Origin: Octopus sinensis
Lineage: Eukaryota
Assembly (NCBI RefSeq): GCF_006345805.1
Contig: NW_021835118.1
Coordinates: 1 to 42,390 of the forward strand
DNA: 42,390 nucleotides
Direction: 5' to 3'
In this document: in pieces, positions 8 through 21,407 of the stretch
Position numbering within the stretch: position 1 is the first letter of the stretch
Layout of the letters: the number at the start of each line of letters is the position of its first letter
Notes under the pieces: model-generated
The model's database searches: none
The model's input: the letters and a program-made list of their open reading frames with translations, nothing else
What the model was told of the DNA's origin: nothing
Position numbers and translations under genes: made by a program

Positions 8-82
8 ATCTTACTGAAGAGCCTACCTGAGTAAATAAATATTATTTTTATTGCTGAAAAAGGCGAAACTGCAGTCTAAGAT
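8..82 (+). ncRNA. Type I hammerhead ribozyme, family A, copy 1
   Basis: ATCTTA-CTGAAGA-GCCT..36 nt..AGGC-GAAA-CTGCAG-TC-TAAGAT. Stem I is 6 bp, the core is a canonical CUGANGA/GAAA, stem II is 4 bp, stem III is palindromic, and the cleavage triplet is GUC. Confidence 0.88.
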
Positions 83-407
83 GAACCGAGATAGTAAAAG
101 TTTTTATTTTCATTTCACTAATTTATCAAGCTTTGTGTATCTAGTACATACTTCGCCTTTAATGTACTTATATGAATAATATATGGCCTGTGCTAGAAAC
201 ACCAGCGATAATAATTAATTTTATTTTATCGCATTTTGAATTTGTTTACATATTTCTCGATAAATTTTGAGCGGTTAGACTATATACCAGAAATCCCTTG
301 TTGTCGGTACGTTCTGCGTCATGCGCAGTGAGCTGATTAGTTAGAAAGAGCAAATTAGTAGACGCACACTGTGTCGTCTATCGTGGTGCGATTTCAAAAT
401 AACAGGA

Positions 408-482
408 ATCTTACTGAAGAGCCTACCTGAGTAAATAAATATTATTTTTATTGATGAAAAAGGCGAAACTGCAGTCTAAGAT
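408..482 (+). ncRNA. Type I hammerhead ribozyme, family A, copy 2
   Basis: Same motif exactly 400 bp downstream of copy 1. Confidence 0.88.
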
Positions 483-960
483 GAACCGAGTTAGTAAAAG
501 TTTGATTTTCATTTCACTAAATTTATCAAGCTTCTGTGTATCTAGTACATACTTCGCCTTTAATGTACTTATATTGAATAAATATATGGCCTGTGCTAGA
601 ACACCAGCGATAATAATTAATTTTATTTTATCGCATTTTGAATTTGTTTATATATAATGTTAATATATATATATATACATATATATATATATATATATAT
701 ATGTATATATTATACATATATATATATATATATATATATATATATATAACATAATATATATATATATGTATATATACATATATATATACATATATATACA
801 TATATATATACATATATATATATATATACATATATATATCATATATAGATATATATATATATATATATATACATATATATAATAATAAATATTAGGGAAT
901 AAATCCAAATTTACAGGCAAAAAATCAGATTTAGGATTAAATCCAATTTAAGTAAAATAT

Positions 961-1064
961 TATATAATATTAATTCGAGACAAAACCACTATTTTGCAAA
1001 ACAAACGAGGAAAGATTTAATCCCAATACATAAAAATTTTTAAGTCTCGAATTAATATTATATA
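961..1064. repeat. 21-bp perfect inverted repeat enclosing a 62-bp spacer
   Basis: TATATAATATTAATTCGAGAC at 961-981 and GTCTCGAATTAATATTATATA at 1044-1064. Confidence 0.75.
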
Positions 1065-1447
1065 CATATATATATATATACATATATATAATATATAACA
1101 TATATATATATACATATATATATACATACTTATATACATATATATATACATATATATATACATATAATATATACATATATATAATACATATATATATATA
1201 CATATATATATACATATAGATATATATACATATATATATACATATATAACATATATATATATATATACATTCTATATATATATACACAATATATATATAC
1301 TATATATATATATATATATATACATATTTATATACATATATATATACATATATATATATATTAATATATATAATAATATAATATACATATATATATATAT
1401 ATATAATATATATATATATATTATATTATATATATATACATATATAA

Positions 1448-1516
1448 TCATCATAATTCAGTGCAATCATTACAGTACTTCAAGCAATCCCCCGAGCAAC
1501 GCCGGCATTCTGCTAG
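1448..1516 (+). mobile_element. Helitron 3' terminus remnant
   Basis: CCCGAGCAACGCCGG hairpin-like motif followed after a short spacer by CTAG|T, the typical Helitron 3' end signature. Confidence 0.6.
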
Positions 1517-1699
1517 TGTATATATAATATATATGTATATGTATATATTATATATATATATATATATTATATATATATATATATATATATATATATAATA
1601 TAATATACATATATATATATACAATATATATAAACATATATATATATATAGAACATATATATTACATATATATATATACATGAAACACAACCATAACAT

Positions 1700-18343: not shown

Positions 18344-18451
18344 ATGGCAGTTGCTAAAAAGCTTTCGTGAAGTAAAACCAAGTAGCAACACCAAATGGCG
18401 GTGCCCCAGCATGGCCACAGCTCATCAGCTGAAACTAGAATCAATCAATCA
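18344..18451 (+). mobile_element. CR1 3'-terminal fragment (about 110 bp)
   Basis: Near-identical to 17025-17135, ends in (AATC)n, and is flanked by (TA)n. Confidence 0.88.
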
Positions 18452-19080
18452 TATGTATATATTTATATATGTATATATATTATATATATATATGTATATA
18501 TATATCTATATATATATATATATATATATATATATATATATATGTATATATATATATATGTATATATATATATATATATATATGTATATGTATGTATAAT
18601 ATATATATGCATATATATATATATGCATATATATATATATGCATATATATATATATGCATATATATATATATATATATATATATATATATATATATGCAT
18701 ATATATATATATATGCATATATATATAAGTATATATATATATATATATATGTATATATATATGTATGCATATATATATGTATGTATATATATATGTATGT
18801 ATATATATATATATGGTATATATATATATGTATATATATATGTATGTATATATATATGTATGTATATATATATGTATGTATATATATATGTATGTATATA
18901 TATATGTATATATATGTATATATATATATATATATAATATATATATGTATATATATATATATATATCTATGTATGTATATATATATAATATATATATATA
19001 TATATATATATATTATATATATATATGCATATATATATATATGTATATATATATTATATGTATATATATATATATATATA
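18452..19080. repeat. (TA)n/(TATG)n microsatellite
   Basis: Direct inspection. Confidence 0.95.
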
Positions 19081-20282
19081 AGTTTAACAATTAGGGATAA
19101 TCTCTTAATAAGGGATCTTAACAAGAAATTATCGGGTAGCTAGCGTGAAAACCTCATAAAAGAAAAGAATTCGAAAAGAATTTTTTTCTTTTGAACAAAT
19201 TAATTATATCTATATTGTATAGAGGGCATTATTACACATAAATGCCTCACACTAGGAGGGACAAAGTCATTACTACCAAAATTATACTAATCATACCCAA
19301 ATGCAGTTTTTCAAAGCAAGACATTTAAAAAATGAATTTAGTTCTGTATCACCGTGATTTCACATTCAACTTACGTCTAATGATCATCAGCAGAAACTGA
19401 TTCTGAACACATCATAAATAAACTACCAACCTTACGTAGCGAAGACGAACAGACAACTGCTCACTCCGGCCAAGCACATGGAATGTTTATAAATCATATA
19501 TCCGGTAAATGGCGGGCTTTTTACGAACTGCATTTCGGAATAAGTTTAACAATTAAGGATAATCTCTTAATAAGGGATCTTAACAAGAAATTATCGGGTA
19601 GCTAGCGTGAAAACCTCATAAAAGAAAAGAATTCGAAAATAATTTTTTTCTTTTGAACAAATTAATTATATCTATATTGTATAGAGGGCATTATTACACA
19701 TAAATGCCTCACACTAGGAGGGATTAGTATAATTTTGGTAGTAATGACTTTGTCCCTCCTAGTGTGAGGCATTTATGTGTAATAATGCCCTCTATACAAT
19801 ATAGATATAATTAATTTGTTCAAAAGAAAAAAATTATTTTCGAATTCTTTTCTTTTATGAGGTTTTCACGCTAGCTACCCGATAATTTCTTGTTAAGATC
19901 CCTTATTAAGAGATTATCCTTAATTGTTAAACTTATTCCGAAATACTTTTCATTACCCGACATGCAGGTCGTAAAAAGCCCGCCATTTACAGGATATATG
20001 ATTTATAAACATTCCATGTGCTTGGCCGGAGTGAGCAGTTGTCTGTTCGTCTTCGCTACGTAAGGTTGGTAGTTTATTTATGATATGTTCAGAATCAGTT
20101 CTGCTGATGATCATTAGACGTAAGTTGAATGTGAAATCACGGTGATACAGAACTAAATTCATTTTTTAAATGTCTTGCTTTGAAAAACTGCATTTGGGTA
20201 TGATTAGTATAATTTTGGTAGTAATGACTTTGTCCCTCCTAGTGTGAGGCATTTATGTGTATAATGCCCTCTATACAATATA
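19080..20282. repeat. Second insertion of the 480-bp family (variant subfamily), head-to-head inverted, with the switch at about 19722
   Basis: 19080-19723 has the same orientation as 8425-12068 and 19722-20282 is reversed. GA microhomology at the junction; diagnostic SNPs are shared by both arms. Confidence 0.92.
20098..20153 (+). ncRNA. Hammerhead family C variant (mirror copy at 19341-19397 on -)
   Basis: GTTCTG-CTGATGA-T-CATT-A-GAC-GTAA-GTT-G-AATG-T-GAAA-TCACGGTGA-TA-CAGAAC. Confidence 0.85.
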
Positions 20283-20680
20283 TATATAATATATATATAT
20301 ATATATATATATATGTATAATATATATATATATGTATATATATATGTATATATATATATATATATGTATATATATATATATATATTATATATATGTATAT
20401 ATATGTATGTATATATATATATACATACATATATATATATATGTGTATATATATATATATATGTATATATATGTATATATATATATATATATATGTATAT
20501 ATATATGTATATATATATAATATGTATATATATATATATGTATATGTAATATATATATATATGTATATATGTATATATATGTATTATGTATATATATGTA
20601 TATATATATATGTATATATATATATATATATATATATATATATATATATATATGTATATATGTATATATATATAAATATA
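20283..20680. repeat. (TA)n microsatellite
   Basis: Direct inspection. Confidence 0.95.
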
Positions 20681-20803
20681 ACAATTTAGGAATGGCCTTA
20701 ACAGGCCATTCGTCCACCAGAGAGAGCAGCCAGAACTCAAACCGCCAAGCAGTAGTAATTCAGAAATTAGGTGAAAATTTAAAAACGTTTACCCTAATTC
20801 ATG

Positions 20804-20900
20804 TTTTAGACGATGCATCGTTTCTGTGTTTTTAATGATAAAATAGCTTAATTAAATTAAATTCAGCTAATCTACCATAGGTCACACTTCATCAGTAAAA
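20804..20900 (-). ncRNA. Type I hammerhead ribozyme, family D, in a solitary island of about 410 bp (20685-21095)
   Basis: Sense reads TTTTA-CTGATGA-A-GTGT..54 nt..ACAC-A-GAAA-CGATGCATCG-TC-TAAAA. Stem III is a perfect 10-bp palindrome and the site is GUC. Confidence 0.8.
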
Positions 20901-21369
20901 AACCTGGGAGAGACAAATATACACAAGGCGTCTGTATCAATGCCTCCGGAATATCTGTCTTAAAATTTTCAAGACCAACGTATTCGCGCCAACCCATCAG
21001 CAGTAAATATAAACTGCCGATTCAATCTCAGAATTAGTGAGAAAATTATCAATTAATCAATTTAGGGTAGCAAAAAATTCAATAGGAATTCAATATATAT
21101 ATATGTATATATATATATATATATACATTTAATCAACCTATACATACACACGTCCAGACCTCTCATACGCACTAATACTCTCTCATACACACACACACAC
21201 ACCCTTATGTTGGAGCTGGTCACTCAACCCTATTGTCTCCCCTAATTTCGCTCTCGCGTCTCATGTTTGATCTTTGACTTCTGGCCGAAATCAGATCGCC
21301 ATGTTGGTTCGTTAGTTACTGCAAGCATTTTTTTCTCTCCTTCTTTCTGTGTTTTTTTCTCTCTGTGTA

Positions 21370-21407
21370 TCTTTCTGTTGAAGAGCGTAGGCTCGAAACG
21401 TTAAAGA
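21370..21407 (+). ncRNA. Variant minimal hammerhead, family E (core CUGUUGA)
   Basis: TCTTT-CTGTTGA-A-GAGC-GTAG-GCTC-GAAA-CG-TT-AAAGA, with an AACGTT palindrome at stem III. Confidence 0.55.

What the first reader, a model, noticed from the sequence alone, without database searches (positions are those of the whole stretch)
8..21407. Five distinct dimer-type hammerhead families within 21 kb, three with an unpaired base of stem II
Seen: families A-E all have a stem III that is palindromic or near-palindromic (CTGCAG, CTCAGAG, TCACGGTGA, CGATGCATCG, AACGTT), each with a different sequence. B and D have A.A and C has U.U at positions 10.1/11.1, where G-C is usual. Inference: these are Penelope-dependent ribozyme elements sharing a (TA)n niche. 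Family-specific palindromes would restrict dimer activation to same-family partners, acting as a self-recognition code. The non-canonical 10.1/11.1 pair could make standard searches miss them.
Basis: partly seen in the sequence, partly recalled or inferred. Interest (0 to 1): 0.75.

Follow-up and report, generated by a model that had tools for sequence, protein, structure and literature searches.

The report
Hammerhead-bearing Penelope-type retroelements in TA repeats
Four non-coding repeat families and the tail of one Penelope-like retrotransposon, all sitting in TA-repeat tracts upstream of a ribosomal RNA gene unit, each carry a small hammerhead (self-cutting RNA) motif, three with a mismatch where a base pair is usual; they are likely copied by the Penelope-like enzyme, which is a kind of element already described, and cutting was not tested.

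Summary
B and D have A.A and C has U.U at 10.1/11.1; this is fixed in all copies examined genome-wide. E is different: its core reads CUGUUGA (U at position 6), stem III is only ACGU, and this U6 form is fixed in about 4,000 copies.

All five are multicopy retroelements. E is the 3' UTR of an autonomous RT + GIY-YIG Penelope-like element (PLE). A-D have no gene. Their 3' ends abut (TA)n, copies lie head-to-head with 5' truncation, and in 17 of 17 inverted pairs one arm has a long and the other a short 3' tail. These are published PLE insertion signatures, so PLE-dependent mobilisation is well supported but not shown.

Rfam models miss B-E. The 'self-recognition code' is physically plausible but untested. 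Natural U10.1-U11.1 hammerheads, PLE hammerheads that act as dimers and PLE-derived animal retrozymes are all in print, and this scan found PLE hammerheads before on other DNA. Verdict: a real, well-organised example of a known kind, with new core-adjacent variants.

The parts
1..655 (+). Family A: 1.6 units of a 400-bp tandem repeat; its 3' end at unit position 253 abuts (AT)n
8..82 (+). Hammerhead A copy 1 (canonical core, G10.1-C11.1, stem III ACUGCAGU); predicted cut between 76 and 77
408..482 (+). Hammerhead A copy 2; predicted cut between 476 and 477
663..1678 (.). (AT)n tract at the 3' end of the A array
4215..5508 (-). Family B, left arm of a head-to-head pair (5'-truncated, short 3' tail ending in TA-rich repeats)
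4248..4294 (-). Hammerhead B (A.A at 10.1/11.1, helix II CG/CG + GCAA, stem III ACUCAGAGU); predicted cut between 4257 and 4256
5504..7310 (+). Family B, right arm (long 3' tail), ends at (TA)n
7166..7212 (+). Hammerhead B; predicted cut between 7203 and 7204
7311..8429 (.). (TA)n tract shared by the 3' ends of B (+) and the C (-) array
8418..12068 (-). Family C: 7.6 units of a 478-bp tandem repeat, with 8 hammerheads (8534-8591, 9010-9067, 9490-9546, 9968-10024, 10444-10503, 10925-10982, 11405-11462, 11880-11934; the last lacks one A of GAAA). U.U at 10.1/11.1, stem III AUCACGGUGAU
12066..12950 (+). Family C, inverted arm joined head-to-head to the - array; hammerheads at 12161-12216 (defective, GAAA reduced to GA) and 12635-12693
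19078..19723 (-). Family C (second subfamily: N7 = U, GUAA loop), left arm of a second head-to-head pair; hammerhead at 19341-19398
19722..20290 (+). Family C, right arm; hammerhead at 20096-20153
20278..20680 (.). (AT)n tract between the 3' ends of C (+) and D (-)
20665..21090 (-). Family D: one 5'-truncated unit of a repeat that is about 472 bp elsewhere in the genome
20804..20901 (-). Hammerhead D (A.A then GUGU/ACAC, long helix II insert, stem III ACGAUGCAUCGU); predicted cut between 20809 and 20808
20959..21007 (-). Second hammerhead-like motif of the D unit with core CUGCUGA (C at position 6) and stem III AAUU; doubtful
21134..21504 (+). Family E: 5'-truncated 3' UTR of an autonomous Penelope-like element, ending at (AT)n
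21370..21407 (+). Hammerhead-like motif E: stem I UCUUU/AAAGA, core CUGUUGA (U6), bulged A, helix II GAGC/GCUC, GAAA, stem III ACGU, U17
21505..21965 (.). (AT)n tract at the 3' end of E

Best explanation
The stretch is a pile-up, in (TA)n microsatellite tracts next to an rDNA unit, of five multicopy retroelement families that each carry a type I hammerhead motif about 35-170 nt from their 3' end; one (E) is the tail of an autonomous Penelope-like element and the other four (A-D) are gene-less families that are likely mobilised in trans by Penelope-like reverse transcriptase/endonuclease.

Shown here:
- the motifs and their copy numbers;
- the RT + GIY-YIG gene upstream of E in full copies;
- the (TA)n junctions;
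- the head-to-head, 5'-truncated arrangement;
- the one-long, one-short tail rule;
- the shared variants of both arms of an array.

Inferred:
- The endonuclease opens a (TA)n target, and reverse transcription starts at one of two or three internal UA-rich sites downstream of the hammerhead.
- Both DNA ends are extended on the same RNA species, giving two arms whose 5' ends meet.
- Multi-unit arrays (A, C, D) would come from multimeric or circular templates.
- The hammerheads would cut multimeric transcripts after H17, mostly as double hammerheads in which the self-complementary stem III of two copies pairs. This would release unit-length RNA that a cellular ligase could circularise, as described for animal retrozymes.
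- The mismatches at 10.1/11.1 (A.A in B and D, U.U in C, A.C in some A subfamilies) are family traits that probably lower activity without abolishing it.
- E's U6 core is probably a weak or non-catalytic relative.
For: MOTIFS
- 15 strict sites against 0.015 in shuffles.
- Genome-wide exact-pattern counts are 3081 for B, 726 for C and 4066 for E, each with 0 for the reversed control.
- DNA searches give first-look candidates of 842 (A), 1722 (B), 851 (C), 1594 (D) and 784 (E).

STRUCTURE SUPPORT
- Family A subfamilies show two-sided compensatory changes: A:U to C:G in stem I, and C:G to U:A (and U:A to C:G) at two to three pairs in helix II. The core and stem III stay fixed down to 78% overall identity.
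- In 103 C units the hammerhead columns other than N7 carry 8 mismatches in 54 columns, against 316 in 419 columns elsewhere.
- N7 takes all four letters across C copies.
- The mismatch letters are fixed: C in 103 of 103 units, B in all 10 copies and D in all 10 copies examined.

PLE LINK
- L005 has a 549-aa frame with YIDD, a CxxC linker and GIY...YIG directly upstream of the E tail.
- That frame aligns over 467 aa (E = 6e-43) to a frame with Pfam RVT_1 + GIY-YIG over threshold.
- The genome has at least 147 GIY-YIG matches among 150 scored of 5029 candidates.
- (TA)n at 3' ends: 37 of 59 rows have 70% or more TA/AT steps in the next 30 nt. Most other rows are internal alignment breaks or begin with shorter TA runs.
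- Orientation: B has 24 '- then +' neighbour pairs against 1 '+ then -' and 1 same-strand among the first 100 sites. C has 14 of 14 mixed loci '- then +' (my count of the list).
- Tail rule: B has 11 of 11 pairs with one long (about 104 nt) and one short (about 33 nt) tail, while solo copies are 12 short and 6 long. C has 3 of 3 and D 3 of 3.
- Both arms descend from one template: opposite arms of a locus differ by 0.85%, same-strand units by 0.73% and different loci by 1.67%. N7 = A is present in both arms of L024 only.
- Literature: (TA)n bias, inverted 5'-truncated copies and a tail at one end (PMC8557442, passages). The tail equals two RT start sites and is 'unique to PLEs' (PMC11167929, abstract and passages). 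Hammerheads lie in pLTRs, as opposite-strand pairs 100-700 bp apart, and act as dimers (PMC4209133, sections and passages). Retrozymes are PLE derivatives (bioRxiv 10.64898/2026.07.22.740005, abstract and section 14).

DIMER
- The RNAcofold minimum-energy homodimers of A, C and D are double hammerheads with an intermolecular stem III.
- Stem III hairpins alone are 0 to -1 kcal/mol.
Against: - No self-cleavage, RNA ends or circles were observed. The only runs found are contigs whose RNA status is a guess.
- No autonomous PLE sharing sequence with A-D was found. Among 30 sampled GIY-YIG loci, only B's last 150 bp appears (L069, L058, L044), and there it forms separate inverted insertions.
- Only 1 of those 30 loci has a clear canonical hammerhead within 1.5 kb, so most PLEs of this genome may not use one.
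- Hammerhead activity may be dispensable. A subfamilies with U4 changed to C (CCGA) form a 20-unit array (L029) and occur at four further loci (L030, L034, L035, L036).
- Published in vitro work found that hammerhead mutants insert normally, and found no RNA-seq reads ending at the cut site (PMC11167929).
- A cut at the hammerhead would separate an element's body from the 3' tail where copying seems to start, so linear cut RNA cannot be the template.
- The only RT genes inside the window are APE-type LINEs.
- Copies within arrays are not independent, so the low variation in the hammerhead is weak evidence.
Confidence: 0.65

Rival explanations
1. The motifs are hammerhead-derived RNA structures that no longer cut, or cut negligibly. 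They would be kept, or merely inherited, as part of the 3' module that the retrotransposition machinery recognises. The 10.1/11.1 mismatches, E's U6 and the CCGA subfamilies of A would then be signs of relaxed catalytic constraint. The elements would still be PLE-type retroelements.
For: - U6 is fixed in E: 99 of the first 100 listed copies have T and 1 has C at position 6, of 4066 exact matches. It is also conserved in four diverged PLE 3' UTRs.
- The U4-to-C subfamilies of A spread to several loci.
- PLE hammerheads cleave poorly in vitro even as dimers (PMC4209133), and mutants insert normally (PMC11167929).
- A6C gives low activity (PMC3088659, section 8).
Against: - Four to seven families that are otherwise unalignable (A-D here, F and G elsewhere) all keep the full CUGANGA/GAAA core, three helices and H17.
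- Stems covary in family A.
- N7 alone varies freely in C.
- U.U at 10.1/11.1 is the most active mispair and occurs in active natural ribozymes (PMC3088659, section 8).
Confidence: 0.2
2. A, C and D are ordinary satellite DNAs that are amplified and inverted at the DNA level (unequal crossing-over, replication slippage, palindrome formation at fragile TA tracts). The hammerheads would be passengers, and no reverse transcription would be involved.
For: - The arrays are tandem and highly homogeneous: 0.4-1.3% divergence within a locus.
- (TA)n tracts are fragile and recombinogenic (general knowledge).
- A core-mutated 20-unit array exists.
Against: - There are hundreds of dispersed loci on many contigs, each ending at the same one to three unit positions and each abutting (TA)n.
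- 5' truncation is variable.
- The orientation is strictly '- then +', and the long/short tail rule holds in 17 of 17 pairs.
- These are hallmarks of target-primed copying, not of local DNA rearrangement.
Confidence: 0.08
3. A-D are SINE-like riders of the APE-type LINEs that lie in the same region, not of PLEs.
For: - The window holds a LINE with an APE endonuclease and RVT_1 (13054-16150, - strand) and a 75%-identical fragment (1706-3797).
- LINE-dependent elements with microsatellite tails exist (general knowledge).
Against: - No sequence is shared between A-E and the LINE in the self-comparison.
- Head-to-head pairs in which both arms carry the same 3' region, and the one-sided tail, are described for PLEs and not for LINEs (PMC8557442, PMC11167929).
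- E, with the same architecture and the same niche, is a PLE.
Confidence: 0.07

Closest known systems
Minimal and short-stem-III type I hammerheads in the pseudo-LTRs of metazoan Penelope-like elements (Cervera and de la Pena 2014, PMC4209133; Lunse et al. 2017, not readable here)
   Same: - Type I topology and a self-complementary stem III.
- Predicted action as dimers.
[quoted passage not shown]
- Location in the terminal repeat region of PLEs.
- Thousands of dispersed, mostly truncated copies, and pairs on opposite strands 100-700 bp apart.
   Different: - A-D have a longer stem III (8-12 nt of self-complementary sequence) than the min-HHR.
- That paper reports a highly conserved G10.1-C11.1, whereas B, C and D have a 1x1 mismatch there.
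- E has U6.
[quoted passage not shown]
   Same: - A (400 bp), C (478 bp) and D (about 472 bp) are gene-less, AT-rich tandem repeats with one type I hammerhead per unit.
- They are dispersed over the genome and co-occur with many PLEs.
   Different: - B is a 1.8-kb dispersed element, not a short tandem repeat.
- Circular RNA was not shown here.
- The PLE link rests here on insertion anatomy (tails, inversions, (TA)n), not on pLTR phylogeny.
- The preprint deals mainly with vertebrates.
Natural hammerheads whose stem II starts with a U10.1-U11.1 mismatch (Perreault et al. 2011, PMC3088659, section 8)
   Same: Family C has exactly this mismatch. The paper notes that U-U is the most active mispair at this position and that stem II can be as short as two pairs, as in B.
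   Different: - Those examples are not described as PLE or retrozyme elements in the section I read.
- A.A (B, D) and A.C (A subfamilies) are not mentioned there.
Newt/salamander satellite 2 and related dimer-dependent hammerheads (Forster et al. 1988; Epstein and Gall 1987; both known to me only as cited in PMC4209133 and PMC7229834)
   Same: [quoted passage not shown]
   Different: - Those have a canonical G10.1-C11.1.
- No (TA)n or inverted-pair architecture is described in the passages I read.

Membership tests
Hammerhead ribozyme, type I (Rfam RF00163) | Core letters C3 U4 G5 A6 N7 G8 A9 ... G12 A13 A14, A15.1-U16.1 pair, H17 (not G) | tested here: met
   Met by A, B, D and 10 of 12 C copies. 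NOT met by E (U6) or by the second D motif (C6).
Hammerhead ribozyme, type I (Rfam RF00163) | Three helices around the core with stem I open (type I) | tested here: met
   Stem I is 4-8 bp and helix II 2-4 bp next to the core. Stem III is 2-4 bp plus a 3-4-nt loop as a monomer, or 8-12 bp as a dimer. Compensatory changes occur in stems I and II of family A.
Hammerhead ribozyme, type I (Rfam RF00163) | G10.1-C11.1 pair closing helix II | tested here: not met
   Met by A in the window only. B and D have A.A and C has U.U; A subfamilies elsewhere have A.C. The literature accepts U.U variants as members (PMC3088659).
Hammerhead ribozyme, type I (Rfam RF00163) | Score at or above the family's gathering threshold | tested here: not met
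   A scores 36.3 bits against 34. B, C, D and E are not reported even at E up to 10 in short stretches.
Hammerhead ribozyme, type I (Rfam RF00163) | Site-specific self-cleavage after position 17 | not testable with these tools
   No raw RNA reads were available. The contigs laid cannot show RNA ends.
Penelope-like element (autonomous, EN+) | [quoted passage not shown] | tested here: met
   Met for E's family only. The L005 frame has YIDD, CxxC and GIY..YIG, with RVT_1 at E = 0.0013, below Pfam's cut-off. It aligns to L046, which has RVT_1 at 30.6 bits and GIY-YIG at 30.1 bits. The window's own E copy is only the last 371 bp. A-D have no such ORF.
PLE-type insertion signature (applies to A-E as elements) | 5' truncation, with partial tandem and/or an adjacent inverted 5'-truncated copy | tested here: met
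   B: 24 head-to-head neighbour pairs against 1 tail-to-tail and 1 same-strand pair among the first 100 sites. C: 14 of 14 loci. D: 3 loci. A: tandem only.
PLE-type insertion signature (applies to A-E as elements) | Optional 3' 'tail' extension present at only one end of an insertion | tested here: met
   B 11 of 11, C 3 of 3 and D 3 of 3 inverted pairs have one long and one short 3' end. The extensions are 65-150 nt, longer than the 30-40 bp given in PMC8557442.
PLE-type insertion signature (applies to A-E as elements) | Insertion bias for (TA)n microsatellites (Naiad/Neptune-type) | tested here: met
   37 of 59 rows have 70% or more TA/AT steps in the 30 nt after the 3' end. Most other rows are internal alignment breaks or shorter TA runs.
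Animal non-LTR retrozyme | Short (about 150-450 bp) AT-rich tandem repeat, no ORF, one type I hammerhead per unit | tested here: met
   A 400 bp, C 478 bp, D about 472 bp; GC 23-35%. B (1.8 kb, dispersed) does not fit.
Animal non-LTR retrozyme | Expressed as unit-length linear and circular RNA | not testable with these tools
   Contigs of four runs, guessed but not recorded as RNA, cover the C unit and join unit to unit ('goes back' 478/479). Tandem DNA gives the same result.
Animal non-LTR retrozyme | Sequence relationship to the pLTR of a resident PLE | tested here: inconclusive
   No similarity of A, C or D to 30 sampled GIY-YIG loci. B's last 150 bp is found near three of them, but as separate inverted insertions.

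The most novel reading that the evidence does not exclude
The mismatch at 10.1/11.1 and the family-specific self-complementary stem III work together as a kin-recognition switch. The weakened junction between helix II and the core makes each ribozyme inactive unless coaxial stacking on a long intermolecular stem III restores it. Transcripts are then processed only when two RNAs of the same family meet. Several families competing for the same Penelope-like enzyme and the same (TA)n targets therefore cannot cut, or be cut by, one another. Meanwhile the autonomous element itself (E, with U6) has given up catalysis.
Probability: 0.1. Interest if true: 0.7.

Novelty: new variant of a known kind. 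Interest (0 to 1): 0.38.

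Why it matters
**Searches.** Hammerhead searches that insist on G10.1-C11.1, or that use the Rfam models, would miss at least three abundant families in this genome. There are about 3,000 intact B motifs and about 700 intact C motifs, plus a 4,000-copy U6 relative. Counts of ribozyme-bearing retroelements in invertebrate genomes may therefore be too low.

**Origin of retrozymes.** The insertion anatomy gives a line of evidence that hammerhead tandem repeats ('retrozymes') ride on Penelope-like elements. 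This evidence is independent of sequence phylogeny. It consists of head-to-head arms from a single template, (TA)n at both outer ends, and one long and one short tail in 17 of 17 pairs.

**Experiments.** The same anatomy yields concrete substrates for in vitro work on PLE priming sites. The natural A.A, U.U and A.C series at one position is a ready-made set for testing how much that base pair matters in dimeric hammerheads.

Tried and rejected
**RNA evidence**
- The look-up of sequencing runs listed no holder on record as RNA ('no RNA holder listed').
- The second, on one C unit (10700-11180), showed that contigs of four runs (kind guessed RNA, not shown transcribed) cover the whole unit. They bridge the predicted cut site and join unit to unit ('goes back' 478/479).
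- These are contigs. They cannot show RNA ends, strand or circles, and tandem DNA explains the result equally well. It is not used as evidence.

**Readings and ideas rejected**
It leaves CUG unpaired between stem I and the core and puts a C.U inside helix II. The U/G variation seen in relatives falls on U4 in that register but on the free N7 in mine.
- D(-) and E(+) as one chimeric head-to-head insertion is rejected, because about 35 nt of TA repeat lie between their 5' ends.
- The matches to mir-297, mir-1277 and other microRNA models are (TA)n hairpins, all far below their gathering scores.
- The motif at - 18428 (CUGAUGAG ... GAAAGCUU) has no convincing stems I or II and was dropped.
- One relaxed-descriptor site at - 19393 is an overlap artefact of the C hammerhead.

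**Tests that gave little**
- Per-column conservation of the C hammerhead is suggestive only. With N7 included, 130 of 474 windows of equal size are as conserved or more so.
- Looking for the autonomous partner of A-D among 30 GIY-YIG loci gave no partner.
- Looking for canonical hammerheads next to those 30 PLE genes gave one clear case, L043.

**Literature limits**
- Lunse et al. 2017 (RNA Biol), the paper most likely to list PLE hammerhead variants, is not held.
- Searches for 'G10.1 C11.1 mismatch' and '10.1-11.1' found nothing.
- I therefore cannot say that A.A at this position is unpublished. I did not open the supplements of PMC4209133, which hold the family alignments.

Full report
**Setting.** The window is a whole unplaced contig (C11589) of a 2.7-Gb eukaryotic genome.
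- Bases 29.5-38.9 kb hold one rDNA unit: 18S, 5.8S and 28S.
- Bases 1-22 kb are AT-rich (23-45% GC) and consist of repeats separated by long (TA)n tracts.

**Check of the observation.**
- A is at + 8-82 and 408-482.
- B is at + 7166-7212 and - 4248-4294.
- C has twelve copies. Ten have all core letters; the copies at 11880-11934 and 12161-12216 have lost A's of GAAA.
- D is at - 20804-20901.

The strict descriptor finds 15 sites in 22 kb, against a mean of 0.015 (maximum 1) in 200 dinucleotide shuffles. Because copies are repeats, this amounts to four independent families. B and D have A.A, and C has U.U, between A9/G12 and the first Watson-Crick pair of helix II. No other register is available, because GAAA is unique in each motif.

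Each stem III is different and is self-complementary, or nearly so with one central mismatch:
- A: ACUGCAGU
- B: ACUCAGAGU
- C: AUCACGGUGAU
- D: ACGAUGCAUCGU

E (21370-21407) needs re-reading. The register with a contiguous stem I (UCUUU/AAAGA), a bulged A after A9 and a perfect GAGC/GCUC helix II has the core CUGUUGA. That puts U at position 6, makes stem III ACGU, and makes position 17 a U. A second, weaker motif with C6 lies 108 nt upstream of D in the same unit.

**These are family traits, not local mutations.** DNA searches of the genome give the following first-look candidate numbers:

| Family | First-look candidates | Identity of scored copies |
|---|---|---|
| A | 842 | 78-97% |
| B | 1722 | 97-99% |
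| C | 851 | 96-99% |
| D | 1594 | 95-98% |
| E | 784 | 98-99% |

- Exact patterns count 3081 B motifs, 726 C motifs and 4066 E motifs. The reversed control gives 0 each time.
- The mismatch letters are unchanged in 103 of 103 C units and in all 10 B and 10 D copies examined.
- In E, position 6 is T in 99 and C in 1 of the first 100 listed copies. Position 7 is T in 79 and G in 21 (including the C6 copy).
- The same U6 motif is the best-conserved block in four PLE 3' UTRs that are only 72-77% identical to E.

**Support for the fold.** Family A has diverged subfamilies.
- Relative to the window's form, one has stem I A:U changed to C:G, and helix II C:G, C:G, U:A changed to U:A, U:A, C:G.
- Another has C:G changed to U:A.
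- In both, 10.1/11.1 is A.C instead of G:C.
- Stem III ACUGCAGU and GAAA do not change.
- Two subfamilies carry CCGA instead of CUGA (U4 to C). One is a 20-unit array (L029) and the other sits at four further loci (L030, L034, L035, L036).

I did not use the pair-counting tool, because an indel shifts the helix II register in the automatic alignment. The pairs were read by eye.

In family C, hammerhead columns other than N7 carry 8 mismatches in 54 columns, against 316 in 419 elsewhere. With N7 included the region is not exceptional: 130 of 474 equal-sized windows are as conserved or more so. N7 takes C, A, U and G in different arrays, as expected for the one free core position. Units of one array are not independent, so this is weak support.

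**What the elements are.**
- E: in L005 the E tail follows, on the same strand and about 385 nt downstream, a 549-aa frame with YIDD, a CxxC linker and a GIY...YIG block containing cysteines.
  - That frame aligns over 300 aa to a frame with a Pfam GIY-YIG domain.
  - It also aligns over 467 aa (E = 6e-43) to a frame with both RVT_1 and GIY-YIG above threshold.
  - This is the defining gene of endonuclease-bearing Penelope-like elements. The window's E copy is only the last 371 bp.
- The genome is rich in such genes: 147 of 150 scored candidates match, out of 5029 candidates.
- A (400-bp unit), C (478 bp) and D (about 472 bp) are gene-less tandem repeats. B is a gene-less element of about 1.8 kb.
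- The only RT genes inside the window are two APE-type LINE copies, which share nothing with A-E.

**Insertion anatomy.**

First, 3' ends abut (TA)n. Of 59 alignment rows with an assessable downstream flank, 37 have at least 70% TA/AT steps in the next 30 nt. The split is A 11 of 20, B 7 of 10, C 9 of 12, D 6 of 8 and E 4 of 9. Most of the remainder are breaks inside arrays (seven A rows at unit position 366-368), short fragments, or flanks that begin with a shorter TA run.

Second, each family ends at one to three fixed unit positions:
- A: 253
- B: 1742 or 1807
- C: 164-196 or 313-318
- D: 79-83 or 167

Third, copies are 5'-truncated and lie head-to-head.
- Among the first 100 B sites there are 24 '- then +' neighbour pairs within 4 kb, 1 '+ then -' and 1 same-strand.
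- All 14 C loci with both strands in the first 100 listed sites are '- then +' (my count of the list).

Fourth, in every inverted pair examined one arm has the long 3' end and the other the short one: B 11 of 11, C 3 of 3 and D 3 of 3. Solo B copies are 12 short and 6 long. Eleven discordant pairs by chance would then have a probability of about 1e-4 (my arithmetic).

Fifth, both arms of a C locus share its private variants, for example N7 = A in 8 minus-strand and 5 plus-strand units of L024 only. Opposite arms are as alike (0.85%) as units on one strand (0.73%), while different loci differ by 1.67%.

**Comparison with the literature.**
- Craig et al. 2021 (PMC8557442, passages read) describe PLE insertions as 5'-truncated partial tandems, often with an adjacent inverted 5'-truncated copy. 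They describe a 30-40-bp 'tail' often present at only one end, and a (TA)n bias.
- Frangieh et al. 2024 (PMC11167929, abstract and passages) show that the tail is the stretch between two internal RT start sites and call it unique to PLEs.
- Cervera and de la Pena 2014 (PMC4209133, sections 4-6 and passages) report hammerhead pairs on opposite strands 100-700 bp apart.

The window's elements therefore bear the PLE signature, although their tails are longer (65-150 nt). I infer that A-D are non-autonomous riders of PLEs. The same proposal was made on phylogenetic grounds for vertebrate retrozymes in a 2026 preprint (10.64898/2026.07.22.740005, abstract and section 14).

**How the ribozymes would work (inferred).**
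- Isolated stem III hairpins are predicted at 0 to -1 kcal/mol, while same-family duplexes are -6 to -18.7 kcal/mol.
- The minimum-energy homodimers of A, C and D are double hammerheads, with an intermolecular stem III, intact helix II and swapped stem I strands. B and E do not give that fold as the minimum.
- Cross-family stem III duplexes are -6.6 kcal/mol or weaker. Heterodimers are therefore disfavoured, which is all that can be said for the 'recognition code'.

A cut would leave the core on the upstream product and remove the 3' tail. Cut linear RNA therefore cannot be the template. Multimeric or circularised RNA could be, and would explain multi-unit arrays with fixed 3' ends.

**Against a needed catalytic role.**
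- The CCGA subfamilies of A have spread.
- E has U6.
- PLE hammerheads cut poorly in vitro (PMC4209133).
- Hammerhead mutants insert normally in vitro (PMC11167929).
- Only 1 of 30 sampled PLE genes has a clear canonical hammerhead within 1.5 kb.

**Novelty.**
- Perreault et al. 2011 (PMC3088659, section 8 read in full) already report natural hammerheads whose stem II starts with U10.1-U11.1. They note that U-U is the most active mispair, that two-pair stem II is common, and that A6C retains low activity.
- Cervera and de la Pena report the extra nucleotide 5' of helix II, but also a 'highly conserved G10.1-C11.1' in PLE hammerheads.
- I found no printed mention of A.A or A.C at this position. 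However, the most relevant paper (Lunse et al. 2017) and the supplements of PMC4209133 were not seen.
- Rfam's hammerhead models do not report B, C, D or E even in permissive scans of short stretches.
- Earlier notes of this scan describe PLE hammerheads in other genomes as known, and mention first-pair mismatches in phage hammerheads. I did not test those notes.

**Verdict.** The recognition code is untested. The whole is a clear, information-rich instance of a known kind, with new variants next to the core.

Noticed in passing
G000 contig C1, first 100 B sites; loci L073, L079, L081, L084, L095: Most B head-to-head pairs are tiny. In 16 of 24 pairs only 2-48 nt (mode 20-24) separate the two hammerhead 5' ends, so each arm is just hammerhead plus tail. 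The join often falls at a CTAG in the sequence upstream of stem I and makes a perfect palindrome. This suggests either a short RNA species starting about 10-13 nt upstream of C3, or snap-back priming. It is unexplained.
   Followed up: partly
window 13054-16150 (-) and 1706-3797 (+): There are two copies (75% identical) of a LINE with an APE-type endonuclease and RVT_1 domains. The first has a 615-aa open frame. They are unrelated in sequence to the hammerhead families but embedded among the same (TA)n tracts. Bases 12950-13529 are repeated in inverted form at 16570-17160 (88% identical).
   Followed up: partly
L029 (G000:C9:51659000-51667300); L030, L034, L035, L036: Family A subfamilies have a core that reads CCGA instead of CUGA (U4 to C). 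One is a 20-unit tandem array and the other is present at four further loci. Either this change is tolerated or arrays spread without ribozyme activity. CCGA to CTGA is also a CpG transition, so the direction of change is unclear.
   Followed up: partly
L001:7547 (-) and 7701 (+); L013, L016-L019; L043:2621: Further hammerhead families occur elsewhere in the genome. F has stem III ACCGUUCGGU, A10.1:U11.1 and an extra A before G12, and forms a head-to-head pair. G is canonical with stem III ACAUGUGU, at 34-48 bits against RF00163. One more lies next to a PLE gene, with stem III ACUCGAGU. Every family has its own self-complementary stem III.
   Followed up: partly
window 29524-32162 and 33937-38853: The rRNA genes are unusually long and GC-rich (about 64%). 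The 18S spans 2639 nt for an 1831-position model and the 28S spans 4917 nt for a 3401-position model, with large expansion segments.
   Followed up: no
window 17313-17773; 22664-23460: There is a perfect (100% identical) 236-bp tandem duplication. There is also a repeat array of about 180 bp (with a 66-bp sub-repeat) just upstream of the GC-rich rDNA spacer that starts near 24 kb.
   Followed up: no
window 8418-12068: The window's C array is more heterogeneous (2.6% within the array, mostly single-base indels in homopolymers) than nine arrays on the large contigs (0.4-1.3%). This may reflect assembly errors in this unplaced contig rather than age.
   Followed up: no
window 21447-21648: Across the (AT)n tract that follows E lies a 56-bp inverted fragment of the E tail (21593-21648, - strand). 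Two E-type 3' ends thus face each other tail-to-tail, as expected for independent insertions from both sides of one TA tract. L046 shows the same arrangement.
   Followed up: partly
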